64,000 bases of DNA from Candidatus Gottesmanbacteria bacterium GW2011_GWA2_43_14 (GCA_000999095.1 LCFP01000001.1:205680-269679); one strand, 5' to 3'. Positions 6,500 to 50,193 are shown, counted from the first letter of the stretch. The notes: generated from the letters alone by a model not told the origin. Program-made: numbers and translations.

Positions 6500-7349
6500 G
6501 ACCGGTGGCGCTCATGGCTCCCAACAGCGTCAGGAAAAATAAAATATGGGCCAGGCTGTGACCCGTAAGCCTGATTGTTTTATGCTTCCAAATAAACACG
6601 CTGTCCAGCATTAAAAGCACCAGCATAAATTCAGCCAAAACCAATGACAGCAGTCTGGGCAGGCTGGTTGCCGCCGGCAAAGGTCTGATTTGAGCTTGGG
6701 CTACTGCCGGTACCGGCTGCAACACAGGTTCAATTCTCATACTGCTTTCAGTGAGGTCGCTGACTGGCAGTGTTCTGTCCCTGGAACCGAATTCCTGAAC
6801 GACTAAAGTTGTTTCCTCTCCGTTCAGACGGCCGTTGACTACAGCCAAACCGATTTCAGTATACTCCCTTTTCAGGATGTTTACCCGGTGGGTAGGTGAA
6901 TTCATCCAGGCCATGACTACTTCTTCCGAGGTATCAAAACTTTTAGCCAGATTCTCACCGGCATAAATATACTGGTAGCCGTTCCTGACAATAAATTCCC
7001 AGGGAGTCGTACCTGTCGGCGAAATATGAGCCCAATAATTTTTATCGAACATGTCCCCGGCTTTTTCCGCGGCGGCACCGGATAATTCCATCGAATAAGA
7101 AAGTACCGGCATGCCTTCTTTTTGCCGTTCCCAGTTTACCAGCTGAAATACCCTTTCAATATTGATATCGGTCGCGAATCCCAGGATATTCGGATTGGTT
7201 TTCCTGACTTGTATGTAAACAGTCTGGATCAGCAAAAGAAACAGAACATAAATGAGGATACTGGGGTGATGCAGTGTTTTCGCCCGGTAATTATTGGTAT
7301 GGTGGGGAAGAAAAAAATGGGCAATAAAATGCCCCAGTTTTAATAACAT
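6483..7349 (-). CDS. CAP/SCP (PR-1-like, YkwD-type) domain protein with N- and C-terminal TM segments
   Basis: NYWAHISPTG, GENLAKSF and AWMNSPTHRVNIL...YTEIGLAVV match CAP-domain signature blocks. Confidence 0.7.
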   Translation of the reverse strand: MLLKLGHFIAHFFLPHHTNNYRAKTLHHPSILIYVLFLLLIQTVYIQVRKTNPNILGFATDINIERVFQLVNWERQKEGMPVLSYSMELSGAAAEKAGDMFDKNYWAHISPTGTTPWEFIVRNGYQYIYAGENLAKSFDTSEEVVMAWMNSPTHRVNILKREYTEIGLAVVNGRLNGEETTLVVQEFGSRDRTLPVSDLTESSMRIEPVLQPVPAVAQAQIRPLPAATSLPRLLSLVLAEFMLVLLMLDSVFIWKHKTIRLTGHSLAHILFFLTLLGAMSATGLGAIL

Positions 7350-7373
7350 TAATATTCATTTTAATTACTCGTG

Positions 7374-7778
7374 TCAGAGTTCACAAGTATAGACTGTCTC
7401 ACCCAGGCACTTGTCTTTACCGTTCCGGCCGTATACCTTGTCAAAACCGTCCCCGCCGGAAATAAAGTCATTGCCGTTCCCGCCGTCAAGCACGTCATCG
7501 CCATCATCACCGTAAAGCATATCATTGCCGTTCGAGCCTTCCAGCTTATCTTTGCCTTCTCCGCCCGACAAAATGTCATTGCCGTTCGATCCCTTGAGGG
7601 TATCAGCGCCTGAGCCTCCGTAAATCCGGTCATGGCCGTTCGATCCTTCCAAAACATCATTGCCTTCTTCCCCATACAAAAAATCGTCGCCGTTGCTGTT
7701 ATTGATCCTGTCATTACCCGAACCGCCGATGACGCAATCACTGCCGTTTCCACTGTCAATCCGGTCATTGCCTTCCAA
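7374..7778 (-). CDS. RTX-type (hemolysin-type calcium-binding) nonapeptide-repeat protein. Short, TTG start, possibly a fragment.
   Basis: About 13 tandem GGxGxDxLx-type repeats (GSGNDRINN, GEEGNDVLE, GSNGNDILS and so on). There is no ATG: the ORF starts at a TTG and an in-frame stop lies 16 codons upstream. Confidence 0.55.
   Translation of the reverse strand: MEGNDRIDSGNGSDCVIGGSGNDRINNSNGDDFLYGEEGNDVLEGSNGHDRIYGGSGADTLKGSNGNDILSGGEGKDKLEGSNGNDMLYGDDGDDVLDGGNGNDFISGGDGFDKVYGRNGKDKCLGETVYTCEL
7390..7770 (-). repeat. tandem 27-bp (nonapeptide) repeat tract encoding RTX-type GGxGxD repeats
   Basis: Recurrent gccgttc / ccgtt...gcc periodicity visible in the DNA. The alternate-frame ORF 7361..7768 is an artefact of it. 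Confidence 0.6.
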
Positions 7779-7940
7779 ACCGTAAATTGGAAGAATTAGA
7801 CTGAAGGAGTAATCAATTTCTGTAATTCAGTATTTGTTTCTTCATTACTCACATCTTCAAATTGCTGTAGTTTATACATATAAATATACTGTGAAGTAAC
7901 AGTGTATTTAATTAATAAGCATTTTTTTATCTTTAGAGAA

Positions 7941-8270
7941 TTAAACCAGAGGCTTTTGTGTTCGCTTCCTAACCAATTCACTTATGGCTTTTGCAACTCC
8001 GAAACAATATTTCTCAATAATTAGATTAGGAATATGAATAGTATGGAAATTATCTATTTCAGAGTAGTGTGATCTACCGAAATCCCTTGCGATTTGATCA
8101 GGATCTAAAAAATGGTGCATTCCATCCACTTCAATATAAATTTGTGCGTCAAGAATAGCTATGTCGACATGTTTATGTCCGTCTGAGTATTCATATTCAG
8201 CATTAACGCCCAATCTTTTAAGTTCGTTAAAGAGTTTTTCTGCCTGCGGTGTACTATGTAGATGATTCAT
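7941..8270 (-). CDS. DUF559-like (Vsr/restriction-endonuclease-fold) protein
   Basis: EKLFNELKRLGVNAEYEY...HVDIAILDAQIYIEVDGMHHF...ARDFGRS resembles the DUF559 core (L..L...G..F..Q..IG.Y.VDF.....IELDG..H......D..RD). Confidence 0.45.
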   Translation of the reverse strand: MNHLHSTPQAEKLFNELKRLGVNAEYEYSDGHKHVDIAILDAQIYIEVDGMHHFLDPDQIARDFGRSHYSEIDNFHTIHIPNLIIEKYCFGVAKAISELVRKRTQKPLV

Positions 8271-8288
8271 ATAACTATCTACGATTCT

Positions 8289-8495
8289 TCAGGAAACTGG
8301 AGACTTTTTATAATCCACTCGAATGCATACATCTCTGAAACAAAGAATCATAAGTCTGAGAATCATATTTACTTTTAACTGACTTGTAGCTGTAACTGCA
8401 TTTAAATTACAATCTTTTTTGAAATTAGCCGGTCTTAATATAAACCAATAAAAAGAAAATAGTATTAAACCGATCGTCAGTAAGAACCACATCAT
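8289..8495 (-). CDS. small hydrophobic protein, unknown function
   Basis: 68-aa ORF with one TM helix. Weak support. Confidence 0.25.
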   Translation of the reverse strand: MMWFLLTIGLILFSFYWFILRPANFKKDCNLNAVTATSQLKVNMILRLMILCFRDVCIRVDYKKSPVS

Positions 8496-8516
8496 AATTT
8501 GATTATAATACGAATC

Positions 8517-9032
8517 ATGAAACTATTCTTTAAAATCTTGCATAAAAGATTCTGGACAAGAAATATAATTTTAGTCTGTACACTCTTGGTTTTAACTTCA
8601 ATTCTTATGTATTTGAATCAACCTAAACAATATAGTTTTCTTCCGAAATTTAAAGGCATGGTTTCTGACACGGATAAAACTATTCAAATTTTCGGTCTGA
8701 GGTATTCTTCATACCTGTCCGGCAATTCATCCCCGGCAGAATTTAAAGAGGCTCTTATTAACTTTCAGGATGATTTGATTAGCCTTAATGAAGGATTGGA
8801 GAATTTAAAGCCTAATAAGGAACACCAGGAGCTATACAAACAATACCTGACTGGAATCAGTCTGGTAAAAGGTGTGGTCAAATACAACCTTGAAAACCTG
8901 ACTGATGAAATCCTTGATGCTGATTTAGTGGAGGAAGAACAGGTAAAAATGGAAACAGGATTAAATTTAATTCAACTTACTAAGGAAAAACTAGGGATAG
9001 AATCAACTTCTCAGCCAGAAAGCTTAATTTAA
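8517..9032 (+). CDS. membrane-anchored hypothetical protein
   Basis: N-terminal TM helix (NIILVCTLLVLTSILMYL) followed by a hydrophilic domain. The start is probably the internal MKLFF. Confidence 0.4.
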   Translation: MKLFFKILHKRFWTRNIILVCTLLVLTSILMYLNQPKQYSFLPKFKGMVSDTDKTIQIFGLRYSSYLSGNSSPAEFKEALINFQDDLISLNEGLENLKPNKEHQELYKQYLTGISLVKGVVKYNLENLTDEILDADLVEEEQVKMETGLNLIQLTKEKLGIESTSQPESLI

Positions 9033-9043
9033 GTATTCATGAG

Positions 9044-9697
9044 GTGGTAATATTTAATTATATGGAAATCTTTAAGTCTATACTTAGTTTTATATCTGCT
9101 ATGTTTATTGGAGTCTTCGGATTTATCAATCCTGTCATTAAAATAGCTCCCACACCAACTTTACCACTTTCAATTGGTAATACTTCTGTATCACCTTTAA
9201 TACCTACCACCAATGAGTTTAACTCTAAACCTGTTGATCGTGGAGATGTAATTGGAATAATGGGGAATACAGGAAACGCTTCTAGACCAAAACTACATTT
9301 TGCGGTTTACAATTTAAATGAATCAGATTTGAACAAGTTTAACGCTGATGTCGGACATTTAAACCCTTTTAATTTTCTTCGAAATAAGAAATTATTTTTT
9401 GATTCTGATTCCTGTCACGATGTGAGTAAAAAAATTGAAAAATCAGTCGGAACTGGAAATTGGGATTGGCCAATGTCTAATCCAATAATTTCACAATGTT
9501 ATGGAAATACTCAATTGTCATTAAATAATCCTGATGAAATTAATAATGGAATTGATATGTATGATGATGTCGATACGCTTGTGCGGGCGGTTGAAAACGG
9601 AAATAAATATGTTTATCGTGGCGGAGCTTCTGAAGGAAATGGGGTATTAATTTTTCACTCTGACGGTAAAATGAGTCTTTATTGGCACCTTCAATAA
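9044..9697 (+). CDS. circularly permuted, degenerate M23/LytM-domain protein (signal-anchored). Paralog of the EnvC-like protein at 26640.
   Basis: GDVIGIMGNTGNASRPKLHFAVY precedes GNWDWPMSNP...INNGIDMYDD...SLYWHLQ-stop. The HxH motif is reduced to KLHF and the HxxxD motif to NNGID, so two metal ligands are lost. Confidence 0.6.
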   Translation: MVIFNYMEIFKSILSFISAMFIGVFGFINPVIKIAPTPTLPLSIGNTSVSPLIPTTNEFNSKPVDRGDVIGIMGNTGNASRPKLHFAVYNLNESDLNKFNADVGHLNPFNFLRNKKLFFDSDSCHDVSKKIEKSVGTGNWDWPMSNPIISQCYGNTQLSLNNPDEINNGIDMYDDVDTLVRAVENGNKYVYRGGASEGNGVLIFHSDGKMSLYWHLQ

Positions 9698-9826
9698 TTA
9701 ATAACAACATAATCTTGATTTAAGAAATAAATATTTCATATAAAATTACCTTTACAATCGGACAACACAATATGATCAAATTAATAAATTTAGTAATAGA
9801 TTATTTACTGGAGTACAATACGGATT

Positions 9827-10432
9827 ATGTATAGCCTATATAAAATATGTACTATTTTATTAACTGCCTCTTTGGCAGTTTTTTTATACTTTTCGCCAGT
9901 TGAAGCAAAACAAGGGTGTTGTTCTAGTCATGGGGGAGTTAATTGTGATGCTGGAGCGCAATCTAATGGTCTAGTAATCTGTAATGATGGCTGGAGGGGA
10001 TCTTCTTGTTTATATTCAGAAATGGTAATGTGTGGTGGTTCATCGAGTAATTCTATAAATATTGCACCTATAAAAGATCAACCAATTCAAATATTACCTT
10101 CATCAACTCCGACTATTAAGAGAATTTATCCAACCTGGACACCAAAGCCCCAACCTACCTTAATCCCTTCTGCAACTTTAACTCCTGATTCAACAAGTAC
10201 TCCATATCCAACATATACTCCTTACCCTACTTATACACCTGTTCAGATGATCTCAGAATATCCTAAACCTTCAGGTTCTATACAGGGTGTTTCAACAGAT
10301 TCTAATACAGCTTCAGGAGATTTTTTTATCGGTTTACTGCTTGTAGGGCTGGCCTGGATTTTTAGAGGTAAAATTAAATGGATATTGAGCTCTCAAGGGA
10401 AATCTGATCAAGAATTACCTCCACAAAAATAG
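9827..10432 (+). CDS. Cys-rich secreted surface protein with Pro/Thr/Tyr linker and C-terminal TM anchor
   Basis: Signal peptide, then a CCSSHGGVNCDAG...C...C...C module. The linker contains PYPTYTPYPTYTP. The C-terminus is hydrophobic (FFIGLLLVGLAWIF). Confidence 0.55.
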   Translation: MYSLYKICTILLTASLAVFLYFSPVEAKQGCCSSHGGVNCDAGAQSNGLVICNDGWRGSSCLYSEMVMCGGSSSNSINIAPIKDQPIQILPSSTPTIKRIYPTWTPKPQPTLIPSATLTPDSTSTPYPTYTPYPTYTPVQMISEYPKPSGSIQGVSTDSNTASGDFFIGLLLVGLAWIFRGKIKWILSSQGKSDQELPPQK

Positions 10433-10655
10433 CGCCCAGTAACTTTTTAAAGTCGTGAGCGGTCTAATTGGAATCAAAAAGCATTTTCGCACATTCCTAC
10501 ATACTATTAACAAATTAATATTTTTTAAATTCGCATACTATATTTAAATATCAGTGTGATACATTTATAGCTTATTGTTACAACATATTTCACATGATAT
10601 TATTCAGGCAAATTTTTATACCTATAGTATTTTTAACATTAACAATTTCATTTAT

Positions 10656-10943
10656 ATGAAAATGAAAAAATATGCATTTATTTTCCTCTTTGTAATATTT
10701 GCTTCATTAATTAAGCCTCAAAATACTTTTGCATATGGTGGTGGTGGTCTTCCTGGATTACCTCCACCTCCTAAACTTAAACTTGTTTGTAATTATGAAG
10801 CTAGAATCATTAGACTAGTTTTCAATCGGACATTCACAATTTTAATACCAAAATGTCATGTCGAAGTTATTAAAGTAAATAATGATGAATTTAAAAATAG
10901 ATGGAATGATTTCATTAAGCGTGTAAGAAATGGTAATAGTTAA
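10656..10943 (+). CDS. small secreted protein, unknown function
   Basis: Signal peptide MKMKKYAFIFLFVIFASLIKPQNTFA, then GGGGLPGLPPPP. I chose the start at the internal ATG (10656). Confidence 0.4.
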   Translation: MKMKKYAFIFLFVIFASLIKPQNTFAYGGGGLPGLPPPPKLKLVCNYEARIIRLVFNRTFTILIPKCHVEVIKVNNDEFKNRWNDFIKRVRNGNS

Positions 10944-10948
10944 TATGT

Positions 10949-12571
10949 ATGGATTTAAACTCTCAAAACGAAGAAAAATATCTATATATTCATAAAACTC
11001 CCACTTGGAAAGTCCGTATACTATATTTTTTTGGGATTATCTCTTGGTTATTTGTAATTTATAGCTATGCTGGTTTGATAGGCATTGATCCTTTCTTTAC
11101 TTGGTATTTTTTACCAATTCTTACCGTTCTATCTTTATATTATCTAATAAGTTGGAGTATTAATGCTTTTTATAAACAATTTAATTTATATAATCATCAG
11201 AGATTAATAAAAACCTATTGGGCATATCATCGAGAGCCATTAGTTGATATATTTCTTCCAATATGTGGTGAAGATATTGAAGTATTAAGGAATACTTGGT
11301 GGCATGTTTTTAATATTTCTTATAAAAACAAAAAAATATATGTACTTGATGATTCTTCGGAAGAGTGTGAAGAGCATCAACAATTAGCAAATTTATTTGG
11401 CTTTAATTATTTTAGTCGTCCCAATAAGGGAGAAAATAAAAAAGCAGGAAATTTAAAATATGCTTATGAACGAACTAATGGAGAATTTATTGCTATATTT
11501 GATGCTGATTTTGCTCCACATAAAGATTTTCTAATTGAAGCTTTACCTTATACAAATAATTATAATGTGGGAATAGTACAGACTCCACAATATTTTGAAA
11601 CGAACGAGAAATTATACAAATCTTCATCACTTGCCTATGCGGCTGCATATCAAGAAGAATTCTTTTATCGTATAATTCAAGTTGCAAGAAACAGATTTGA
11701 TGCTCCTATATGTTGTGGTTCAAATTCAATATTTAGACGAAGAGCACTTATGACAATAGGGGGATTTCGGCAAGTAACAGCAAGTGAAGATTCTCGGACT
11801 GGATTCGCACTACTTTGTAAGGGTTGGATTATCCGTTATATTCCTGTTATTTTAGCCACGGGTATGTGTCCAACTAATGTATATGCTTATTACCATCAGC
11901 AGCACCGTTGGTGTAGAGGACGTTCAGAACTCACTCTTTCTAGGGAATTTATATTTGCTCCTATATCGTTTATCAAAAAACTATGTTATACAAGTGGTTT
12001 TCTTATGTTTTTAATTAGACCATTAAAATTATTTATTTCGTTTCATCTATTTTGGATTTTATTTATATATAATGATACCATTTCTTTAAGTAATTCCTTC
12101 ATATTTTATCTATATTTACTATTTGTTTTTATTCTTGACCCCCTGTTTCATATAGCAAAATTTAAGAAAGAAAACTTTTTAGTAGCTATGATTAAGATTT
12201 ATTCAAGTACCCATGCGATTATTTCGGTTTTAATGAGAAAAACAGTAAGTTGGATACCAACGAATGCTAAACATAAGAAAGTTTCTCACGCTTTTATTCA
12301 AACAACAAATCTTGTTGGTCTTTATTTATTCTTGTATGTAACACTGATATTATTAGCCATTAGGACGGGTGATTTACACTTATTGAATTATGACTATTTT
12401 TCTATTCAGTTTTGGATATTCTGGAATATTTTACTTACAATTGTTTTATTTGTACAATTTTTAAATGTAATTAAAAGTATGAAATATAGTAAGAATGATA
12501 ATAGTTTTTCAAATCAATATAAACGAATTAATCTACTTCCAAAGTTAGATTTAGATATTGCCTCCTATTAA
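10949..12571 (+). CDS. family-2 processive beta-glycosyltransferase, cellulose-synthase (BcsA/CESA)-like catalytic membrane protein
   Basis: The D, DxD, ED, QxxRW quartet is present: VLDDSS, IFDADF, TASEDSRTGF, QQHRWCRG. TM helices flank the catalytic domain. Confidence 0.8.
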   Translation: MDLNSQNEEKYLYIHKTPTWKVRILYFFGIISWLFVIYSYAGLIGIDPFFTWYFLPILTVLSLYYLISWSINAFYKQFNLYNHQRLIKTYWAYHREPLVDIFLPICGEDIEVLRNTWWHVFNISYKNKKIYVLDDSSEECEEHQQLANLFGFNYFSRPNKGENKKAGNLKYAYERTNGEFIAIFDADFAPHKDFLIEALPYTNNYNVGIVQTPQYFETNEKLYKSSSLAYAAAYQEEFFYRIIQVARNRFDAPICCGSNSIFRRRALMTIGGFRQVTASEDSRTGFALLCKGWIIRYIPVILATGMCPTNVYAYYHQQHRWCRGRSELTLSREFIFAPISFIKKLCYTSGFLMFLIRPLKLFISFHLFWILFIYNDTISLSNSFIFYLYLLFVFILDPLFHIAKFKKENFLVAMIKIYSSTHAIISVLMRKTVSWIPTNAKHKKVSHAFIQTTNLVGLYLFLYVTLILLAIRTGDLHLLNYDYFSIQFWIFWNILLTIVLFVQFLNVIKSMKYSKNDNSFSNQYKRINLLPKLDLDIASY

Positions 12572-12618
12572 TTTTGTACACATTTAAATAATAGGTATTT
12601 TCAGTATAATATCTACAA

Positions 12619-12993
12619 CAATACAAGCAAATATTTCTCGTATTAGCTTCAATTCTTCAGCAAAATCAATATAGAGCTCCAACTCAAACATTCAAACCTC
12701 AACCAACAAAACATATTCCTCCCTCAACAAGAATTCCTCCCATCGAAGAACCACTTCCCACTTATACACCTTTCCCAACTTATACCCCATATCCATCATA
12801 TACACCTGAACCAACTTCTCAACTTAAAACAATATCCCCAAAACCAACCGGTGAAATAAAAGGGGTCTCTACTAATGCTTCTACATATTTTGAAAGGGAA
12901 ATGTCGGGTTGTGTTCAAACCATCCTTACAGTTATGGTGGAACATGACATTTTCAAACACCTCCTTCATATAAAGATAACTACGAACTCGTAA
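12619..12993 (+). pseudogene. remnant (C-terminal-like fragment) of a surface protein paralogous to 9827..10432. No start codon.
   Basis: The in-frame translation PLPTYTPFPTYTPYPSYTPEPTSQLKTISPKPTGEIKGVSTNAS parallels TPYPTYTPYPTYTPVQMISEYPKPSGSIQGVSTDSN of the intact gene. It lacks a start codon and the TM anchor. Confidence 0.4.
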
Positions 12994-13169
12994 TTTTCTT
13001 TGTTCTCCTACTACTGTATCTATAGATTTTTGCATTATTGCTCGTTTTACTGGAAATTTCTTACCTTCTTCGTAAGGTTAATCCATATTTACTTATACTC
13101 AATTTTAAAATAATACACGTATTATCATTAGACGTTAGAAATGACTTTGTTTTTGGTATAATCCGGATA

Positions 13170-13493
13170 ATGAGGAATAATCTTCGGCAGTTACGACTAG
13201 AATATCACATGCTTCAGGATCACTTAGGGAAAAAAGTAGATCTCACAAGACAATCAATTATATCTATAGAAAAAGGAAAGACTGCTCCTTCACTTAAGAC
13301 CGCCTTTAAAATAGCCCAATTTTTTAATAGAAAAGTTGAGGATATCTTTTTAATAGATAAGGGTATTAAGTCCAGAGGAACGAAGCAAAAAAAAACCACT
13401 TATACAGTAACTATAACTAGTGATTCTCCAATTGAGATAGTAAAAGTCTCACGAAACAGTGGCCATAATAAACACCCATATAAGAATCGGTAG
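13170..13493 (+). CDS. XRE-family helix-turn-helix transcriptional regulator
   Basis: LRQLRLEYHMLQDHLGKKVDLTRQSIISIEKGKTAPSLKTAFKIAQFF is a classic HTH_XRE. I chose the internal ATG as the start. Confidence 0.65.
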   Translation: MRNNLRQLRLEYHMLQDHLGKKVDLTRQSIISIEKGKTAPSLKTAFKIAQFFNRKVEDIFLIDKGIKSRGTKQKKTTYTVTITSDSPIEIVKVSRNSGHNKHPYKNR

Positions 13494-13586
13494 GTGTCTT
13501 TAAAAAGTAAAAAGGCTGAACTCAAATAATGTTATATTAACCTCGGGAACTAGTGATAATCATTAGTTATTGCAGTGAATTCAGAA

Positions 13587-13952
13587 TTACGTTATTTCCC
13601 CATTTGAATCCTCTTTTAAAGTAATCCATAATATTGCCATTCCAGCATCCGGGTCGTTTGTAATATCATTTTGTGTTTTAATATAAATTTCCTTTAATTT
13701 TTCAGCTACCTTAGGTTTATCAATATATTTGAATTGTCCAATATATTGCTTTCCTTTATGGGCGTTTATACTCCCATTACACCAGATGCTATTGAATCCA
13801 CAAGGCGGCCGTTGAGATTCTTCAAATGATTTATCTTTATATACGACTAAATTGATCATGTATTCATACGTAGTATGTTTCATATTGATATCTAATTTTT
13901 CCTCTATTTTTGTAATTCTTCCTTTACTGGTCATGTATTTTCTCCTCAACAA
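13587..13952 (-). CDS. hypothetical protein
   Basis: 121-aa ORF, no recognisable motif. Confidence 0.3.
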   Translation of the reverse strand: MLRRKYMTSKGRITKIEEKLDINMKHTTYEYMINLVVYKDKSFEESQRPPCGFNSIWCNGSINAHKGKQYIGQFKYIDKPKVAEKLKEIYIKTQNDITNDPDAGMAILWITLKEDSNGEIT

Positions 13953-14063
13953 TTTTTTCTATCTTTTCCAATCTATCTTCAATTTCAGATTTTTCATGAG
14001 CGTCAGGAAAGCAACGAATTAGGAAACCAATCGAAATGTAACGAATAGTCTCTTTTACTTTTT

Positions 14064-14759
14064 TTACGGGGAATTTTTGACGGCGGTCACAATCAGGCGC
14101 TTGCTGTCGGCATAGCCTGAACAGGTATAGAGGGTAAGAATGGAACTGTCAGTCGGCCCGATAACTTCCGTTTGGCTGGGTAAAACTTCCTTTATTTCCG
14201 CAACGGTGTAGGAATACCAGGCGTCAGCTGTCAGAACCAGGACGCTTTCTCCGGTCTTAATCTCTTTTAAAGGCAGAAACAATCCCTGCCTGGCATGAGC
14301 GAAAATAACCGTGTTGCCGGTCTCATCAGGATAAGCTGATCCTAAACCGAAACCGGCACTGTCGGGGAAAACTTCCCAGAAGCCGCTGACAATCTTTGCC
14401 TCTTTGACCGGCAGATTGATATTCAGTGAAGGAATGACAATCCTGTTCGGACTCTGCTGCGCTTTGGCAGTGGCTTTCTTCTCCTCCAAAAATTTCTCAT
14501 CTATCTTGACCGGCTCGCTGGCAAAGGATACGGATATCAGTTCGCCGCTTTTTTCATCAAGGATAGGGGCTGTCTTTTTCAGCGACTGCTGGTTTAAGTA
14601 AATGGAGGCCAGTACAAAAAATAAGCCTGATGCTAAAAGCACCAGTCTTATCTTTTTTGTCCTGTCAGCAAGGATCGACTTTAACGTCGGTTTCTTTTGC
14701 CTATAAGGTTGTTTGCGACGTCGGTGTTTAGTTTTGACTTGGCGTACAGCAGCAGGCAT
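14064..14759 (-). CDS. sortase (class A-like cysteine transpeptidase), membrane-anchored
   Basis: N-terminal TM helix. Catalytic His in NTVIFAHAR, TLYTCSG (TLxTC Cys motif), Arg in RLIVTAV. Confidence 0.75.
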   Translation of the reverse strand: MPAAVRQVKTKHRRRKQPYRQKKPTLKSILADRTKKIRLVLLASGLFFVLASIYLNQQSLKKTAPILDEKSGELISVSFASEPVKIDEKFLEEKKATAKAQQSPNRIVIPSLNINLPVKEAKIVSGFWEVFPDSAGFGLGSAYPDETGNTVIFAHARQGLFLPLKEIKTGESVLVLTADAWYSYTVAEIKEVLPSQTEVIGPTDSSILTLYTCSGYADSKRLIVTAVKNSP

Positions 14760-15235
14760 AAGATTCCTCCCAAAAGCATTATATCAGATGCCCCCACTTC
14801 TTCTCCGGCCGTTTCCGACAATCCGGAAACCGCGGGTCCTTCCGATAGACCGCCTATGCCTCCGCCTTCTCCGTTTCCTCCGCCCCCGCTTACATCACTG
14901 TTATCTACATCAGGTGTCCAGCCGCAGTAAGGTCCCGAGTATGATTTACCGGCTGCGCACGGATCATCCTCATCATTGCCGCCATTTCCTCCATTGTCAG
15001 AAGGTGTAACTTCCGGTCCTCCGACGGGCGGAGAAGTCGGTGAGACTTTACTGGTTGGTGAAGGATTATATTGAGGTGGTAAAGTAGGCAAAAACCTGTC
15101 TTCGTTAGGTTGTGTCGGCCTGGTTGTCGGCCTCTCCCACCAATCCGCGTTAACCGAACGGTTGAGAATAAAACCGAAGCTTAAAATCAGGATTATAATT
15201 AAGATTTTTTTGCCCATACTTTCACCTCCTTTCAA
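14681..15235 (-). CDS. small secreted Pro/Gly-rich protein with C-terminal sorting-signal-like tail (LSETAG + hydrophobic + KSK...KRNRR)
   Basis: Signal peptide, then a P/S/T-rich then G-rich region. The C-terminus has motif-hydrophobic-basic architecture. Strong RBS AAGGAGGTGAAAGT upstream of the ATG. The 3' end overlaps the sortase start. Confidence 0.5.
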   Translation of the reverse strand: MKGGESMGKKILIIILILSFGFILNRSVNADWWERPTTRPTQPNEDRFLPTLPPQYNPSPTSKVSPTSPPVGGPEVTPSDNGGNGGNDEDDPCAAGKSYSGPYCGWTPDVDNSDVSGGGGNGEGGGIGGLSEGPAVSGLSETAGEEVGASDIMLLGGILCLLLYAKSKLNTDVANNLIGKRNRR

Positions 15236-20179: not shown

Positions 20180-20779
20180 TTAAGGTCCTACTGTAATGCT
20201 TGATGTATTGGCAACAGTCGTTACTATTGTCGTTGAGCTGGCGTTGCCGGTAGAAATTCCACCATCAACTTTAGTATTGTAACTGGTTACATTTTCACCT
20301 GAATTAGCACTCGATGAAATATTATTAACGACTCTGGCATCCTGTCTATTGTTAACTCTTATTTCCTGAGTATCAACTACAACTGCAATATTTTTAGATT
20401 TATAACCAGTCTGGTCAATTTTGACTGTCGTATCTTCATCACAACCACAACCGTTAACTTCTATAGTTGAATCATTTACCTGAGTCAAAACATCAGTAGT
20501 AGAAGTTGCATCACCAGTCCCGACATCGCCTAATACTTTTGTATTATATTCAACTTTATTTTTGCCCGAATTCACATTTGACGTCACGTTATTAGTGACA
20601 GTGGCGTTCTGCGGGTTACTGACTGTTGTTCTTCTTAATTTGACGATGGCACCTATATTCCAGGATTCGGCACCGGTATCAATAATCCTAACAGTATTGG
20701 CAGCAAATGACGGAGAAGCGCTTGCCAAAAATATGGCGGTACCGAAAGCTGCACTGATTATTTTTTTCATATACTTCAC
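20180..20779 (-). CDS. secreted protein with two copies of the N/T/G-rich repeat (shortest family member)
   Basis: Signal peptide. ATVTNNVTSNVNSGKNKVEYNTKVLGDVGTGDATSTT and ARVVNNISSSANSGENVTSYNTKVDGGISTGNASSTT. RBS GGAGGTGAAGTAT before the ATG. Terminator hairpin downstream. Confidence 0.65.
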   Translation of the reverse strand: MKYMKKIISAAFGTAIFLASASPSFAANTVRIIDTGAESWNIGAIVKLRRTTVSNPQNATVTNNVTSNVNSGKNKVEYNTKVLGDVGTGDATSTTDVLTQVNDSTIEVNGCGCDEDTTVKIDQTGYKSKNIAVVVDTQEIRVNNRQDARVVNNISSSANSGENVTSYNTKVDGGISTGNASSTTIVTTVANTSSITVGP

Positions 20780-26639: not shown

Positions 26640-27866
26640 CTATTGCAAGTGCCAGTAGAGGGTCATTTTGCCGTTTTCATGGAAGATAAAAACACCGTTG
26701 CCTGCCGATTGTCCGCCGCGGTATACGTATTTATTGCCGCCTTCAACAGACTTGATTAAAGTGTTTTTGTCGTCATACATATCGACTCCGTTGTGGATGC
26801 CGGACTGGTAACGCCAGGACCAGGGAGTATGGCCGTAACACTGGGAAATTGACGGACTATCCATCGGCCAGTCCCAGGACCCGGAGCCGATCGACTTTGA
26901 GGTTCTCTGGTCGGGCGAGACGTCGTCGCAGGCGGTTGCCTCGAAGCCCAACTCCCTGGATTTCAACAGGTTAAACGGATTCTCATAACCGCTGTTGAAA
27001 TTGAACTTATTCAAATCAGCTTCGTTCAGGTTGTATACAGCAAAATGCAGATGGGCACCGGTAGAAAACCCTGTGTTCCCCATGATGCCGATGACATCGC
27101 CTTTATTGATTTTGGTTGGTACCCCGGCCTGGGACAGAAGTGATGCAGCGCGCTGGATGCCTTCGGCTTCCCTCCTGGCCGCATCAAGTTCCTGGCGGTA
27201 GCGGGACTCGCTGCTTCTGGTAGTCTCCAAAAACAGCTCTTTTTCTTTTTTCTGCACCGCCAGGGTATTTTGTTCTTTTTCCAGCTGTTTTTTTGCCTGG
27301 TCAAGCTCCACTTTTTTATCTTCACGCTGCTGTTTCTGGTCTTTAAAATTTTCCTTGCTGTTCTGGAGCTGAAACAGCAGTTTTCTGTCATGCGCCTGGA
27401 CTTTCTGCATGTATTTGAAGCGGTTGACGAAATCGGAAAAACCGTTGGAAGAAAGAACCATAGTCAGATAGGATTTTTCCCCCAGCCTGTAGGTAGCGGC
27501 AATCCGGTCCAAAAGGACCTGGGAAATTTTTGTCAAAGAAGATTCCAGGCTGTCGATTTTTTCGGAAATCGTATCAATATCTTTTTCAATTTGCGCAATC
27601 TTACCCCTGGTAGCATCAATTTTCGCCGTAGTCAGCTGAATTGAAGTCGTCAGGTAAACAATTTGAGCTGCCATGTTCTGCCTTTGGGCGGAACAGACAT
27701 TGACGATGTCAGTATAACAGCTGACGCGTTCATTGGCCTCTGATTTATCTTTGCAGGGATCGTCGTTCGGACAGACAGACAATCCGTACACGCTCAAAGG
27801 AGTTAAAACCAGGTATATAAATACGACCGATAAGATCCTGAAAAGTTGAGTGGTTATTCTGGACAT
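26640..27866 (-). CDS. EnvC-like cell-division murein hydrolase / activator: signal-anchor, about 200-aa coiled coil, circularly permuted M23 (LytM) domain with intact metal ligands
   Basis: Heptad-rich KIAQIEKDIDTISEKIDSLESSLTK...QELDAARREAEGIQRA. Then KGDVIGIMGNTGFSTGAHLHFAVY (canonical C-terminal M23 block with HxH). Then WDWPM...QCYGH...HNGVDMYDD...GKMTLYWHLQ-stop (canonical N-terminal block with HxxxD and the YxHL histidine). It lies immediately downstream of ftsX. Confidence 0.75.
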   Translation of the reverse strand: MSRITTQLFRILSVVFIYLVLTPLSVYGLSVCPNDDPCKDKSEANERVSCYTDIVNVCSAQRQNMAAQIVYLTTSIQLTTAKIDATRGKIAQIEKDIDTISEKIDSLESSLTKISQVLLDRIAATYRLGEKSYLTMVLSSNGFSDFVNRFKYMQKVQAHDRKLLFQLQNSKENFKDQKQQREDKKVELDQAKKQLEKEQNTLAVQKKEKELFLETTRSSESRYRQELDAARREAEGIQRAASLLSQAGVPTKINKGDVIGIMGNTGFSTGAHLHFAVYNLNEADLNKFNFNSGYENPFNLLKSRELGFEATACDDVSPDQRTSKSIGSGSWDWPMDSPSISQCYGHTPWSWRYQSGIHNGVDMYDDKNTLIKSVEGGNKYVYRGGQSAGNGVFIFHENGKMTLYWHLQ

Positions 27867-27873
27867 CTTTAGG

Positions 27874-28782
27874 TTAATCGTTAAGATACCTGCTTGATGC
27901 AAACAGGCTGCCGACAAAACCTATACCCAATCCGCAAGCAACAAGCAGCAGATAGAGAAGCAGGAACAAAGTCAGGTTTAAAGGCCAGATCAACAAAGTG
28001 AAACTGCCGGCAGATACAAGTTTTAAACTGCCGACACCTTTGAGAAATGAATCGGCATAAGGCTCAAGATAAAGCATCAGGAAAAAACTGATGACAAAAG
28101 CCATGGTGGCGCCTGCCAAACCGTAAAGTAGACCTTCTTTGATAAAAGGTTTTTTTATATACCAGTTGGTAGCACCGACCAGTCTGAGAATTTCGATTTC
28201 TTCCTTTTTATTGGCAATTTTCATGCTGACGGAAGTCAGCAGTATGAAAAAAGTCGACAGGATGAGAAAAAATACAAAAATAAAACCTACTTTACGGACG
28301 GTAGATGCCCAAACAATTAAGGTATCCACTACTTCCTTCTGAAAGACGACGTCCTCCACTCCTGGTTCCGAACGCACTGACTGGTATATCTCATCCAAAT
28401 ACTTTGGAGAAGTGGCTGAAACATCCAGTGAAGCAGGCAGGATGTCGGCTGTCACCATTTCCAAAAGCAAAGGGTCATCCTTGTTCTGCTCACGGTAAAT
28501 AGCCAGTGCTTCTTCCTTGGAAACGTACTTCGTGGAAAGGACTTTATCCGTGCTTTTAAGCTTTTCCGCAAATTTATCTATCGATGCCTTATCCTTGTCG
28601 TTGGAGAAAAAAACGGTTAATTGGGGCTTGGATTCGAAATAACCGACCAAAGCACTTGACGATGCAACCAGGAGCAGGAACAAACCCAACACAAACAGGG
28701 TGATGAACATCATAAACAACGAAGCCACAGTCTGATACGGCGTCCTTCTTAATCTCTGCCAAACCGAAATGGTCGAATACAT
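27874..28782 (-). CDS. ftsX: cell division permease-like protein FtsX
   Basis: Four TM segments, large extracellular loop after TM1. IEILRLVGATNWYIKKPFIKEG conserved FtsX block. Directly downstream of ftsE. Confidence 0.8.
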   Translation of the reverse strand: MYSTISVWQRLRRTPYQTVASLFMMFITLFVLGLFLLLVASSSALVGYFESKPQLTVFFSNDKDKASIDKFAEKLKSTDKVLSTKYVSKEEALAIYREQNKDDPLLLEMVTADILPASLDVSATSPKYLDEIYQSVRSEPGVEDVVFQKEVVDTLIVWASTVRKVGFIFVFFLILSTFFILLTSVSMKIANKKEEIEILRLVGATNWYIKKPFIKEGLLYGLAGATMAFVISFFLMLYLEPYADSFLKGVGSLKLVSAGSFTLLIWPLNLTLFLLLYLLLVACGLGIGFVGSLFASSRYLND

Positions 28783-48135: not shown

Positions 48136-50193
48136 TCAGTTTACCCGGAAAATTTCATAATCACTCGACAAATAAACCCGCTCTATCGGCTTTTTTACTT
48201 CATGCGAATTCTCATCAGCTTCAAATGAATAATAGAAATTTATATAGATGGTATCATCAAACTTCATATCAGAGGAAAGAATCAGTTCTTCACCTGCATT
48301 GACTTGTAAAACCATAGGGGCTTCAAAAACAGTATTAATCCCCTCATTGACAGAATTCCATTTCAAACCGTAAAGTGAATTATTTACTTTAATGTTAGCA
48401 TCCGTAAAAATGCCGGGAGCAATATGAATCCCATCCAGTATGAATTCTCCATCCTTATGAAAATAAAACCCGGTTTTCAAAGATGGGTATTTTATTAATT
48501 TTATGGAAGAAGAAACAACACCGTGAGTATCAGTTTTAAGAACAATTACTTCAGGATTTAGGTTATACCACCAATATCTTACATTACTGCATTCATCATA
48601 ATAAAATTTCTCGTATTGGCGGTTTTTATGGATAATAATGCTTCTGATATCAAAATTTCTTAAAAGAGCCAACGTGTCATTAAAATTTTTATCGACATAG
48701 AGCAATTTATCTTTATGCACTTTTTCTGAATCACAAATATACCTTTGGGTATATTCCTGTTCAAAAAAGGACAACGTGCTCTTATTTTCAGCAGTGTCAT
48801 GAAAATAGCCGTCAACAATTTTTTTATGCGTCATGTACGGTAAAACACTCCGGAAGGCATTAGTTGCCGATAATGGAATATTTAAAATTGCTTTTTCGGG
48901 TAGCTGAGCGGCGACTTTACTCTCCATAAACGGCAATGCAAATGTCCGGTGAACAGTAAAAGTCAGTCTTTCCAATAACATTAAAAGTATTAACGGATAA
49001 ATAAATTTTTTGAGTTTGAAAAAAGGAATCACCGACATAAATACCAGTATCAAAATGGAAAAAATAACAATACTTCTTCCGCCTTCAGGCCAATAAGGTA
49101 ATGGAATCATACCTAAGGTGGCTATCAGATAGACTGCCAATGACAATAAAATAAATATCTTTCTGCGGTTTATTTTTTCCTTGAAATAAAATATTATGAA
49201 GATTATCCAGCCTACCAGTCCAGGACTGATTACCTTCTCTATTGAGGCAGAAGAAAAATTCAATTTCGAATATAGAAGATTAATATACTGATTTGGAATT
49301 AGAATGTCAGACAACTGCGGGAGACAGCATTGAACATACCTTCCATAATTAAAGGGGTAAACAAAACTGCCAAAGATTATACCCTTGGCAAATCCGCCAA
49401 AGAAATATAAAGCGATTATTGCATTAAGTAACAGGACAAAATAAAACACTTCCGGTTTATTTCTTACTTTAACTTTTGCCATCTGAAGATAATATATTAT
49501 GACGGCCAGGCTGTCTTTCGGATATAAAAGCAAATATCCGGTCAGAAGAAACAGGAAAAACCAAAATACTATGATTAAATATTGCAATGATCCGAAAGCG
49601 ATTAATAAAATACCGAAGATGATGTTGAAATAAGCGATAAATCCTGCTTTACCTTTATTTCTGAAAAAATCATAAAATGCTTTTGCCAAAAAAGGGAAAC
49701 CGCCAATAAAGGCCAAATTAGGATGTGAGTTGATTCTGGCGATCACATAAGGTGAGAAACCGTAAAAAATACCGGCGAAAAGTCCGAATAATCCAGATTC
49801 TGAAATCGTACTGAAAAATGAATAAGTTATATAAAAATTCAGGAAAAGGATTAAAATTATCACGAGGTTATATGCTAAAGGGAGCGGCAGGATAAATGAA
49901 AGTAAGGCACCGCTAAAGGTTGATAAGACGCCATCATAACCGTGGCTTAACTCGAATCCGTTCGGATAACGTAAAATATCGGTTTTTTCCAGGGCATATT
50001 TTCCTGATCTAAGATTTTCTCCAACCAGGTACATAAAATTAAAAAATTCATACTTATCTCCATGATCACCGAGCAATTCTTTATACGGGTTGATTGAATA
50101 AATCCTGGAGAAAATAAAAGCCAGTATTAACCCGATAATAATGATCTTATATTTGTTCATTTTTAAAAATATATTCATAATACCTACGGCCAA
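48136..50193 (-). CDS. polytopic membrane protein, GT-C-like, paralog A of an unnamed family
   Basis: Shares LGDHGDKYEFFNFMYLVGENL...RYPNGFELSHGYDGVL...LAYNLV...YGFSPYVIARINSHPNLAFIGGFP with 51400..53406. Confidence 0.5.
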   Translation of the reverse strand: MAVGIMNIFLKMNKYKIIIIGLILAFIFSRIYSINPYKELLGDHGDKYEFFNFMYLVGENLRSGKYALEKTDILRYPNGFELSHGYDGVLSTFSGALLSFILPLPLAYNLVIILILFLNFYITYSFFSTISESGLFGLFAGIFYGFSPYVIARINSHPNLAFIGGFPFLAKAFYDFFRNKGKAGFIAYFNIIFGILLIAFGSLQYLIIVFWFFLFLLTGYLLLYPKDSLAVIIYYLQMAKVKVRNKPEVFYFVLLLNAIIALYFFGGFAKGIIFGSFVYPFNYGRYVQCCLPQLSDILIPNQYINLLYSKLNFSSASIEKVISPGLVGWIIFIIFYFKEKINRRKIFILLSLAVYLIATLGMIPLPYWPEGGRSIVIFSILILVFMSVIPFFKLKKFIYPLILLMLLERLTFTVHRTFALPFMESKVAAQLPEKAILNIPLSATNAFRSVLPYMTHKKIVDGYFHDTAENKSTLSFFEQEYTQRYICDSEKVHKDKLLYVDKNFNDTLALLRNFDIRSIIIHKNRQYEKFYYDECSNVRYWWYNLNPEVIVLKTDTHGVVSSSIKLIKYPSLKTGFYFHKDGEFILDGIHIAPGIFTDANIKVNNSLYGLKWNSVNEGINTVFEAPMVLQVNAGEELILSSDMKFDDTIYINFYYSFEADENSHEVKKPIERVYLSSDYEIFRVN

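What the first reader, a model, noticed from the sequence alone, without database searches (positions are those of the whole stretch)
7780..13600. About 6-kb strongly AT-rich island, probably horizontally acquired
Base composition drops sharply (visually about 30% GC versus 40-48% in the flanks) between the RTX fragment and the sortase locus. The segment has long AT-rich intergenic spacers and a distinct gene set. It carries a DUF559-like nuclease-fold protein, small secreted/membrane proteins, the degenerate permuted M23, a Cys-rich surface protein plus a decayed duplicate, a BcsA-like processive GT2 and an XRE regulator. None of these is a core function. A cellulose-synthase-like enzyme in this context suggests an acquired exopolysaccharide or biofilm trait. 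I saw no integrase or tRNA boundary.
Basis: seen in the sequence. Interest (0 to 1): 0.5.

Follow-up and report, generated by a model that had tools for sequence, protein, structure and literature searches.

The report
Foreign AT-rich island carrying glycan synthase
A 6.2-kb stretch of foreign, AT-rich DNA has replaced four surface-protein genes in a groundwater Gottesmanbacteria (CPR) genome; it is an ordinary acquired island, but it brings in an intact cellulose-synthase-like enzyme paired with a tiny secreted protein, a two-gene unit that also occurs in a phage.

Summary
Window 7788-14029 has 31.3% GC, against 42.8 ± 2.6% for all other 6.2-kb windows. Third-codon-position GC is 0.24 in its nine ORFs and 0.47 in the other 51 genes. 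The right edge is 14029, not 13600.

The closest relative (about 71% nucleotide identity, collinear on both sides) has a 2.7-kb cluster at this site: an M73-like gene, a 139-aa gene, an LTD-domain gene and a full-length 336-aa RTX gene. In the window only the last 133 codons of the RTX gene remain. That truncation shows the island state is the derived one. Six other related loci also lack the island. I found no integrase, tRNA, flanking repeats or phage structural genes.

The intact payload is a 540-aa BcsA-like processive GT2 without a PilZ domain and with no BcsB in the 64-kb window. Five bases upstream lies a 95-aa secreted protein whose mature end is predicted to begin Tyr-Gly-Gly-Gly-Gly. 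This pair recurs in at least eight other loci, one of them inside a phage genome. Named relatives of the GT2 are all Parcubacteria. The donor is unidentified; the best GT2 match is 67% identical.

This is an ordinary kind of event. The cassette is the interesting part.

The parts
7788..14029 (.). AT-rich island (6,242 bp, GC 0.313). It replaces 2,687 bp found at this site in the closest relative.
   Evidence: GC and GC3 profiles. blastn and global alignment with L094 place the breakpoints: L094 5693-6881 matches window 15232-14030, and L094 9569-17343 matches window 7787-75.
7374..7778 (-). 3' remnant of an RTX (calcium-binding repeat) gene. It has host-like GC (0.51) and marks the left breakpoint.
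   Evidence: Pfam HemolysinCabind, E 1.5e-44. It aligns to residues 204-336 of the relative's 336-aa RTX protein at 74% identity.
7941..8270 (-). 109-aa protein, possibly with a PD-(D/E)xK nuclease fold (weak evidence).
   Evidence: PF18741 REase_MTES_1575, E 0.0013, below the cut-off; weak PHROG hits only. GC3 0.26.
8289..8495 (-). 68-aa ORF with one N-terminal hydrophobic segment. Whether it is a real gene is uncertain.
   Evidence: ORF list; hydropathy. It was not called as a gene in the public assemblies.
8499..9032 (+). 177-aa protein with an N-terminal membrane anchor and no family match.
   Evidence: No hit in Pfam, NCBIfam, PHROGs or PADLOC. Hydrophobic segment at residues 18-42.
9044..9697 (+). 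Short secreted M23 (LytM)-like protein with a circularly permuted domain. Both zinc-ligand motifs are mutated (HLH to KLH, IHNG to INNG).
   Evidence: Pfam M23, E 1.2e-11, in two stretches. NCBIfam hits in permuted order. 61% identical to the M23 domain of the host's own PcsB-like gene at 26640-27917. Alignment with P0122-P0125 shows the lost ligands and otherwise high conservation. GC3 is 0.22, against 0.575 for the host paralogue.
9827..10432 (+). 201-aa Cys-rich surface protein: signal peptide, Cys-rich module, Pro/Thr/Tyr-rich linker and C-terminal membrane anchor.
   Evidence: Translation; hydropathy segments at 2-25 and 161-179; no family hit.
10656..10943 (+). 95-aa secreted mini-protein. 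The signal peptide ends in Ala and is followed by an invariant Tyr-Gly and a Gly-rich run (YGGGG in the window), a Pro-rich linker, a two-Cys beta-hairpin and a C-terminal helix. It ends 5 nt before the GT2 gene.
   Evidence: Homologues lie directly upstream of GT2 homologues in L004, L105, L026, L106 and L107, with variant forms in L020/L021, L023 and phage L104. The family has 26 representatives among 1.84 billion proteins, with A-Y-G invariant and two Cys nearly invariant. AF2 pLDDT 83.7; no PDB fold match.
10949..12571 (+). 540-aa BcsA-like processive family-2 glycosyltransferase (membrane-embedded synthase-translocase) with no PilZ domain. It is intact.
   Evidence: Pfam GT2 families. Best PDB sequence hits are BcsA, E about 1e-35. 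NCBIfam CelA scores 173 bits against a cut-off of 699. The DD, DxD, (S/T)ED and QxxRW motifs are invariant or nearly invariant in 30 homologues. AF2 pLDDT 90.6; Foldseek best matches are BcsA with TM 0.59-0.63, then plant CesA and Chlorella virus HAS.
12679..12885 (+). Decayed partial copy of the linker region of the Cys-rich protein (matches residues 102-161). It has no start codon, no Cys-rich module and no anchor.
   Evidence: tblastn: 52% identity over 69 aa, E 7e-10; direct-repeat family D1.
13182..13493 (+). XRE-family helix-turn-helix regulator (94-103 aa, depending on the start codon).
   Evidence: Pfam HTH_3, E 7e-12; PHROG repressor families.
13587..13952 (-). 121-aa protein of unknown function, the last gene of the island.
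   Evidence: No family hit. GC3 0.29. It lies inside the non-homologous segment.
14064..14759 (-). Sortase gene of the host, on the right flank. Homology with relatives resumes about 35 bp past its stop codon.
   Evidence: Pfam Sortase. 52-67% identical to the sortases of relatives that lie adjacent to CAP. Junction alignment.

Best explanation
Window 7788-14029 is foreign DNA from an unidentified low-GC (about 30-35%) CPR bacterium, or from a phage of one. It entered a Candidatus Gottesmanbacteria chromosome by a replacement event. The island removed an ancestral 2.7-kb cluster that lay between the sortase gene and the CAP-domain gene: an M73-like gene, a 139-aa gene, an LTD-domain gene and the 5' 60% of an RTX gene. 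No site-specific recombination machinery is visible, so the event was most likely illegitimate or flank-homology recombination (inferred).

The island is a partly decayed mosaic of cell-envelope genes. Its one clearly selected unit is a two-gene cassette. The first gene encodes a 95-aa secreted protein whose mature N-terminus is predicted to be Tyr-Gly-Gly-Gly-Gly. The second encodes a PilZ-less BcsA-like synthase. By homology, the synthase polymerises a beta-linked glycan from a UDP-sugar at the cytoplasmic face and threads it through its own membrane channel. It would do so without c-di-GMP gating. The small protein probably acts at the outer face as a partner, anchor or primer (inferred).

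Shown here: the composition anomaly, the exact breakpoints, absence from relatives, the truncated RTX gene, the BcsA-like fold and motifs, and the recurrence of the cassette, including in a phage. Inferred: the donor, the recombination mechanism, the polymer made and the role of the small protein.
For: Composition: GC is 0.313 against 0.428 ± 0.026, and GC3 is 0.24 against 0.47 with p = 2.6e-6.

Synteny: the closest relative (GCA_000998355.1, loci L094-L097, CAP protein 70% identical) is collinear at 70-72% nucleotide identity on both sides. It carries 2,687 bp of other genes where the island sits. L098 has the same four-gene arrangement. In L006 and L007 sortase abuts CAP, and L008-L010 have other content.

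Direction of the event: the window's RTX ORF corresponds to residues 204-336 of the relative's 336-aa protein.

The sequence is not an assembly artefact: three public assemblies are 100% identical across both junctions.

The GT2 is intact over 540 codons in 29% GC DNA and keeps all catalytic motifs. Its high-confidence model is BcsA-like.

The small-protein-plus-GT2 pair recurs in L004, L105, L026, L106, L107, L020/L021 and L023, and in phage contig L104/L101. That contig encodes a terminase (E 2e-28), a major head protein, a RusA resolvase and a replication initiator.

The sister GT2 (L105) and L107 lie on contigs of 35% and 31% GC. Named GT2 relatives are all Parcubacteria (Zambryskibacteria, Paceibacterota, Uhrbacteria, Kaiserbacteria, Taylorbacteria), whereas the host belongs to the Microgenomates.
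Against: No donor was found. The best GT2 matches are only 60-67% identical, and no other locus shares more than the two-gene cassette with the island. There is no integrase, transposase, tRNA or significant flanking repeat. The M23-like gene has a 61%-identical paralogue in the same genome, so not every island gene is demonstrably foreign. Only about a quarter of database proteins carry names, so the 'Parcubacteria-like' affinity of the GT2 rests on few labels and an unsupported NJ tree. The three assemblies probably sample one population, so nothing is known about polymorphism. The function of the cassette is untested.
Confidence: 0.8

Rival explanations
1. The island was delivered by a phage or is a prophage remnant. 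A temperate or transducing CPR phage carried the small-protein-plus-GT2 cassette as an accessory gene pair, and everything recognisably viral has since been deleted. This is a sub-hypothesis about the vehicle and is compatible with the main explanation.
For: A 53%-identical GT2 with a 98-aa 'signal peptide-AYGGGGGG' protein 2 nt upstream sits among phage genes on L104/L101: terminase large subunit (E 2e-28), major head protein, RusA resolvase, replication initiator and DNA methylase. The island has an XRE-type repressor. A homologue of its short M23 form (P0122) lies next to KilA-N, RadC and MazG-like genes.
Against: The island has no terminase, capsid, portal, tail or integrase gene. Its PHROG hits are limited to generic HTH and peptidase families. 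It has no DNA similarity to 50,697 phage or 72,556 plasmid records, and no att-like repeats. No island gene other than the GT2 has a significant match in the phage contig.
Confidence: 0.25
2. The block is ancestral, and the relatives lost or replaced it (differential loss rather than gain).
For: The sortase-CAP interval is variable among relatives, with three different states. CAP genes lie near GT2 homologues in three unrelated loci.
Against: The RTX gene is truncated in the window and full-length in two separate relatives, so the island-bearing state is derived. GC3 of 0.24 against 0.47 is not expected for long-resident genes. None of seven related loci has any island gene at the site.
Confidence: 0.05
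3. These are native genes that drifted to high AT content under relaxed selection (in situ decay of a dispensable locus).
For: Several signs of decay are present: a gene remnant at 12679-12885, lost catalytic residues in the M23 domain, 79% coding density and long spacers.
Against: The gene with the second-lowest GC3 on the island (GT2, 0.18; only its 95-aa partner is lower, 0.135) is a 540-codon intact ORF with all catalytic motifs conserved, so it is under selection. The composition break coincides to within a few bases with the synteny breakpoints. The relatives carry unrelated genes at this site.
Confidence: 0.04
4. The block is a metagenome assembly chimera: a low-GC fragment from another organism was wrongly joined into the scaffold.
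For: The source is a metagenome-assembled genome. Another organism in the same JGI metagenome (L020) carries a related GT2.
Against: Three assemblies made by different pipelines (ENA, Logan, JGI) are 100% identical over 14.8-21.6 kb spanning both junctions. Host sequence continues for tens of kb on both sides within single contigs of 217-291 kb.
Confidence: 0.03

Closest known systems
Integrase-less genomic (replacement) islands in hypervariable cell-envelope loci, such as O-antigen or capsule locus replacements and 'flexible genomic islands'
   Same: Atypical GC and codon usage; sharp boundaries inside a conserved syntenic frame; different gene cassettes at the same site in related genomes; cell-surface and glycan gene content; no integrase or tRNA.
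   Different: The host is an ultra-small CPR bacterium. The replaced genes encode surface proteins (M73-like, LTD, RTX) rather than another glycan cassette. One breakpoint lies inside a gene, which argues for illegitimate recombination rather than homologous exchange of alleles.
Bacterial cellulose synthase BcsA (PDB 4HG6/4P00, 9B8V)
   Same: GT2 catalytic domain with the DD, DxD, (S/T)ED and QxxRW motifs. The predicted fold is a membrane-embedded synthase with its own channel. BcsA is the best sequence and structure match.
   Different: The protein has 540 aa rather than roughly 730-890, and no C-terminal PilZ domain, so no c-di-GMP switch. No BcsB, BcsC or BcsZ is found nearby. It scores far below the equivalog cut-offs, and identity is about 20%. 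The product is unknown.
Synthase plus small accessory protein pairs: PgaC-PgaD and IcaA-IcaD (poly-beta-1,6-GlcNAc)
   Same: A processive GT2 is encoded next to a protein of about 100 aa that is conserved with it across loci. The comparison to PgaD and IcaD rests on established knowledge of those systems.
   Different: The GT2 scores only 38 bits against the PgaC_IcaA model, whose cut-off is 422. The small protein lies upstream rather than downstream. It is a secreted protein with a cleavable signal peptide rather than a two-TM membrane protein, and it has no sequence or fold similarity to anything known.
Virus-encoded processive GT2 synthases (Chlorella virus hyaluronan synthase, PDB 7SP6 and others)
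   Same: A phage genome (L104) carries a homologue of this synthase. Chlorella virus HAS is among the structural matches, with TM about 0.5.
   Different: Identity to Chlorella virus HAS is 12-14%. The viral enzyme has no small partner. In the window, the gene sits in a chromosome without viral genes.

Membership tests
Horizontally acquired genomic island | Base composition and codon usage differ from the host genome | tested here: met
   GC 0.313 against 0.428 ± 0.026; GC3 0.24 against 0.47, p = 2.6e-6; tetranucleotide distance peaks at the island.
Horizontally acquired genomic island | Absent from the syntenic site in related genomes | tested here: met
   Seven related loci lack it (L006-L010, L094-L097 counted as one, and L098). 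The closest relative is collinear on both sides and has 2.7 kb of other genes there.
Horizontally acquired genomic island | Mobility genes (integrase, transposase or relaxase) | tested here: not met
   No such Pfam, NCBIfam or PHROG hit for any island ORF.
Horizontally acquired genomic island | tRNA gene or direct repeats at the boundaries | tested here: not met
   No tRNA in the 64-kb window. No significant flanking repeats; only a 7-bp GAATTAG, which is chance-level.
Bacterial cellulose synthase BcsA | GT2 domain with the DD, DxD, TED and QxxRW motifs | tested here: met
   D134-D135, D185/D187, S279-E280-D281 and Q317-Q318-x-R320-W321 are invariant or nearly invariant in 30 homologues.
Bacterial cellulose synthase BcsA | Membrane-embedded synthase fold with a translocation channel | tested here: met
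   AF2 pLDDT 90.6. Foldseek best hits are BcsA chains, E 1e-19 to 1e-24, TM 0.59-0.63. Hydrophobic segments at residues 22-67 and 352-512.
Bacterial cellulose synthase BcsA | C-terminal PilZ domain (c-di-GMP activation) | tested here: not met
   No PilZ hit in Pfam. The protein ends after the last TM helices at residue 540.
Bacterial cellulose synthase BcsA | BcsB (and BcsZ/BcsC) encoded alongside | tested here: not met
   The precomputed Pfam annotation of nearly all called genes across the window (about 949-63,400) shows none.
Bacterial cellulose synthase BcsA | Reaches the curated equivalog score | tested here: not met
   TIGR03030 scores 173 bits against a cut-off of 699. PRK11498 scores 142 against 992.
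Bacterial cellulose synthase BcsA | Makes beta-1,4-glucan from UDP-glucose | not testable with these tools
   This needs biochemistry.
PNAG synthase PgaC/IcaA | Reaches the curated equivalog score | tested here: not met
   TIGR03937 scores 37.8 bits against a cut-off of 422.
Prophage | Hallmark genes (terminase, capsid, portal, tail or integrase) | tested here: not met
   The PHROG scan of the island ORFs gives only HTH-repressor and peptidase families. There is no DNA match to phage records.
Active M23 (LytM) metallopeptidase | Zinc ligands HxxxD and HxH | tested here: not met
   The island copy has KLH in place of HLH and INNGID in place of IHNGxD, whereas five homologues keep both motifs.

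The most novel reading that the evidence does not exclude
The 'signal peptide-YGGGG' mini-protein together with the PilZ-less BcsA-like synthase may be a previously undescribed, self-sufficient and horizontally mobile two-gene surface-glycan cassette of CPR bacteria, carried by phages at least once. In this reading the secreted mini-protein is an obligatory extracellular partner: for example, its invariant N-terminal tyrosine could serve as the acceptor or anchor of the nascent chain. Phages would use the cassette to remodel the host surface, for instance to exclude superinfecting phages. The Gottesmanbacteria island would then be a snapshot of such a cassette crossing between CPR superphyla.
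Probability: 0.25. Interest if true: 0.65.

Novelty: new member of a known kind. Interest (0 to 1): 0.4.

Why it matters
Well-resolved horizontal-transfer events in CPR bacteria are rarely documented. These organisms have small, uncultured genomes, and their cell-surface biology probably governs attachment to hosts. This case has exact breakpoints, a known ancestral state and a clear direction of change. It shows that a surface-protein cluster was swapped for a glycan-synthesis cassette. It also points to a conserved and unannotated partnership between a rare mini-protein family and a BcsA-like synthase, which a phage also carries. That partnership can be tested directly by heterologous expression. 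The island itself is an ordinary kind of feature.

Tried and rejected
- Rfam and tRNA scans of the whole window found nothing.
- The repeat search across 7000-14800 found no flanking direct or inverted repeats. It did recover the internal Cys201 duplicate.
- The promoter and terminator scan was not enriched over shuffles.
- PADLOC found no defence system, only generic HTH hits.
- DNA searches of the island against phage and plasmid collections gave no match.
- The search for a donor failed. Homologues of the M23-like protein reach no more than 62% identity, and GT2 homologues no more than 67%. tblastn of all island proteins against about 95 GT2-bearing loci found only the small protein co-occurring with the GT2.
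- I first read the M23-like gene as a truncated copy of the host pcsB-like gene. I dropped that reading because it matches a separate short secreted form, P0122.
- The Foldseek search with the small-protein model gave no significant hit.
- Literature searches for Gottesmanbacteria or Patescibacteria with cellulose synthase, phage or islands found nothing on this system.
- The GTDB genome scan did not return the window's own genome, so organism identity rests on the names attached to the identical proteins P0001 and P0126.

Full report
**Observation.** The window has a deep, sharply bounded GC trough. In 1-kb windows GC falls from 0.43-0.47 to 0.26-0.35 between about 7.8 and 14.0 kb, then returns to 0.48. 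At 200-bp resolution the drops occur at about 7780 and about 14050. The segment 7788-14029 has GC 0.313. All 182 other 6.2-kb windows have mean 0.428, sd 0.026 and minimum 0.365. The anomaly is mainly synonymous. The nine island ORFs have mean GC3 of 0.24 (range 0.135-0.33), while 51 other genes have 0.47 (sd 0.06), giving Mann-Whitney p = 2.6e-6. The tetranucleotide distance to the rest of the window peaks at the island, at 0.45 against 0.11-0.25 elsewhere. The right one is 430 bp short, because the 121-aa ORF at 13587-13952 is also AT-rich and lies inside the inserted segment.

**Source organism.** The GT2 and CAP proteins of the window are identical to proteins that NCBI names Candidatus Gottesmanbacteria bacterium GW2011_GWA2_4..., locus tag UV73_C0001G0199. 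This is a CPR bacterium of the Microgenomates group. Three public assemblies (ENA, Logan, JGI) contain the region at 100% identity over 14.8-21.6 kb, including both junctions, within contigs of up to 291 kb. An assembly chimera is therefore very unlikely.

**Comparison with relatives.** I searched species-representative genomes with the flanking CAP-domain protein, then made a protein search and looked up genomic contexts. This recovered seven distinct related loci.
- The closest relative is another Gottesmanbacteria genome, GCA_000998355.1 (loci L094-L097), whose CAP protein is 70% identical. It is collinear with the window at 70-72% nucleotide identity. L094 5693-6881 aligns with window 15232-14030, and L094 9569-17343 aligns with window 7787-75.
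- Between these blocks the relative has 2,687 bp encoding an M73-like protein, a 139-aa protein, an LTD-domain protein and a 336-aa RTX protein. The window has the 6,242-bp island instead.
- L098 (CAP 63% identical) has the same four genes.
- In L006 and L007 the sortase gene directly abuts CAP. L008 and L009 have M73-like, signal-peptidase-like and LTD genes but no sortase.
- No island protein has a homologue at this site in any of these loci.
- The 134-aa RTX ORF of the window aligns with residues 204-336 of the relative's RTX protein at 74% identity. It is therefore a 3' remnant, and the reading frame breaks exactly where the GC drops.

This sets the direction of the event: the full RTX cluster is ancestral, and the island replaced it. 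Junction alignments show homology ending about 35 bp past the sortase stop codon and resuming inside the RTX gene. There is no target-site duplication beyond a chance-level 7-mer. The window has no tRNA gene and no Rfam match. There are no significant flanking repeats, and no island ORF resembles an integrase or transposase.

**Gene content of the island.**
- 7941-8270 (-): a 109-aa protein with only a sub-threshold hit to a PD-(D/E)xK nuclease family.
- 8289-8495 (-): a doubtful 68-aa ORF.
- 8499-9032 (+): a membrane-anchored 177-aa protein with no family.
- 9044-9697 (+): an M23/LytM-like protein.
- 9827-10432 (+): a 201-aa protein with a signal peptide, a Cys-rich module, a Pro/Thr/Tyr-rich linker and a C-terminal anchor.
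- 10656-10943 (+): a 95-aa secreted protein.
- 10949-12571 (+): a 540-aa GT2.
- 12679-12885 (+): a decayed copy of the linker of the 201-aa protein, 52% identical over 69 aa, E 7e-10.
- 13182-13493 (+): an XRE-type regulator.
- 13587-13952 (-): a 121-aa protein of unknown function.

Coding density is 79%, with spacers of 129-610 bp. PHROGs and PADLOC gave no viral hallmark or defence system. The island DNA matches nothing in the phage or plasmid collections.

**The M23-like protein.** It is 61% identical to the C-terminal domain of the host's own 425-aa PcsB/EnvC-like protein (26640-27917), which follows FtsE-FtsX. Both have a circularly permuted M23 domain, with the HxH segment preceding the HxxxD segment. 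The island copy belongs to a short secreted form like P0122, which lies next to KilA-N, RadC and MazG-like genes. It has lost both zinc-ligand motifs (HLH to KLH, IHNG to INNG) while keeping the rest of the domain conserved. Its GC3 is 0.22, against 0.575 for the host paralogue. That gap argues against a recent in-genome duplication.

**The synthase.** The GT2 matches BcsA best by sequence (E about 1e-35). It scores far below the curated cut-offs for cellulose, NodC or PNAG synthases. In an alignment of 30 homologues the DD, DxD, SED and QQHRW motifs are invariant or nearly so. The AlphaFold model is confident (pLDDT 90.6). Its best PDB matches are BcsA chains (TM 0.59-0.63), followed by plant CesA and Chlorella virus hyaluronan synthase. 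There is no PilZ domain. The Pfam annotation of nearly all called genes across the window shows no BcsB, BcsC or BcsZ. It is thus a BcsA-like processive synthase-translocase in mechanism but not a member of the BcsA family in the strict sense. Its product is unknown.

**The cassette.** The 95-aa gene ends 5 nt before the GT2 gene. Homologous small genes sit in the same position in front of GT2 homologues in several loci:
- L105, which has the sister GT2 (60% identical) on a contig of 35% GC;
- L004, L026 and L106;
- L107, a contig of 31% GC.

Small genes with the same signal peptide and YGGG start but different C-termini occupy that position in L020/L021, L023 and L104. An exhaustive HMMER search found only 26 family representatives among 1.84 billion proteins. 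All are 87-109 aa long, with A-Y-G invariant, a further Gly nearly invariant and two Cys nearly invariant. No Pfam or NCBIfam model matches the family. The AlphaFold model has pLDDT 83.7. It shows a signal helix, a flexible Gly/Pro linker, a two-Cys beta-hairpin and a C-terminal helix, and it has no significant PDB match.

L104/L101 is a phage genome region. It encodes a terminase large subunit (E 2e-28), a major head protein, a RusA resolvase, a replication initiator and a DNA methylase. The cassette sits in the middle of these genes. The two-gene unit is therefore conserved, occurs in contigs of 31-54% GC, and is phage-borne at least once.

**Origin.** No donor was identified. The best GT2 matches are 60-67% identical, and the closest (L018, L105, L107) come from 31-35% GC DNA. 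All named proteins among the top 120 GT2 hits other than the window's own, apart from one generic 'bacterium' label and one on a 2-kb contig labelled Pyrinomonadaceae, are Parcubacteria. In an unsupported NJ tree the window's GT2 nests among them, and the phage copy branches at the base of its clade. This suggests, but does not prove, transfer across CPR superphyla through a low-GC intermediate. The M23-like gene has its best matches among Gottesmanbacteria-type proteins, so the island may be a mosaic assembled in the donor.

**Mechanism and rivals.** The best-supported account is a one-step replacement of native DNA by foreign low-GC DNA. It happened without site-specific recombination, and the insert has since partly decayed. 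The synthase cassette remains under selection.
- Phage delivery is a plausible vehicle but is unsupported by any viral gene in the island.
- Ancestral presence with loss in relatives is contradicted by the RTX remnant and the codon usage.
- In situ AT drift is contradicted by the intact synthase, whose GC3 (0.18) is the second lowest on the island after its 95-aa partner, and by the coincidence of the composition break with the synteny break.
- Misassembly is contradicted by three concordant assemblies.

**Verdict.** As a genomic island this is an ordinary phenomenon and a new member of a known kind. The added value is the exact reconstruction of the event in a CPR genome and the discovery of a conserved, phage-transmissible pairing of a mini-protein with a synthase whose function is open.

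Noticed in passing
window 10656-12571; loci L004, L020/L021, L023, L026, L104/L101, L105, L106, L107: A rare family of mini-proteins of about 95 aa (26 representatives among 1.84 billion proteins) is encoded immediately upstream of BcsA-like GT2 genes in many CPR-type contigs. Each has a signal peptide followed by an invariant Tyr-Gly and a Gly-rich run. One instance sits inside a phage genome region with terminase, major head, RusA and replication-initiator genes.
   Followed up: yes
window 26640-27917 (-), and 9044-9697 (+): The host's PcsB/EnvC-like protein, encoded downstream of FtsE-FtsX, has a circularly permuted M23 domain in which the HxH segment precedes the HxxxD segment. The permutation is shared by homologues P0122-P0125 and by the island copy.
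   Followed up: partly
window 48136-53406: A second, milder low-GC stretch (GC 0.33-0.37, GC3 0.34-0.38) encodes a GT1 glycosyltransferase flanked by 685-aa and 668-aa proteins without Pfam hits. It could be another acquired envelope segment.
   Followed up: no
L094-L098, L006-L009, compared with window 7349-14064: The interval between the sortase and CAP genes is a hotspot among Gottesmanbacteria relatives. It holds the four-gene M73-like/139-aa/LTD/RTX cluster (L094, L098), nothing (L006, L007), an M73-like/signal-peptidase-like/LTD set without sortase (L008, L009), or the AT-rich island (window).
   Followed up: yes
L016 3955-4323, L028 9476-10120, L034 1938-2549: A CAP-domain gene lies 0.7-2 kb downstream of the GT2 homologue in three otherwise unrelated loci. 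The arrangement echoes the nearness of CAP and GT2 in the window and may be coincidence.
   Followed up: no
window 10280-10310 and 12850-12885; L023 and L028 upstream of the GT2: The motif G-x-(I/V)-x-G-V-S-T-D/N of the Cys-rich protein and of its decayed copy resembles 'GQVLGATTDASG' and 'GQVLGVSTDSSG' in the proteins encoded directly upstream of GT2 homologues in L023 and L028. Some GT2 homologues also carry a fused PG_binding_1 domain (PF01471).
   Followed up: no
window 20180-20779 (-), 56888-57274 (+), 55648-56367 (-): Three isolated genes have atypical composition outside the island. Two have low GC3 (0.295 and 0.318). One is unusually GC-rich (GC 0.54) and is flanked by AT-rich DNA, near a HicB-like antitoxin gene.
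   Followed up: no
L020 (Ga0209211_10005321): The JGI metagenome that holds the window's own contig also holds a 54% GC organism with a 52%-identical GT2. That GT2 is preceded by a 94-aa 'AYGGG' protein with a coiled-coil-like tail, so several versions of the cassette coexist in one community.
   Followed up: partly
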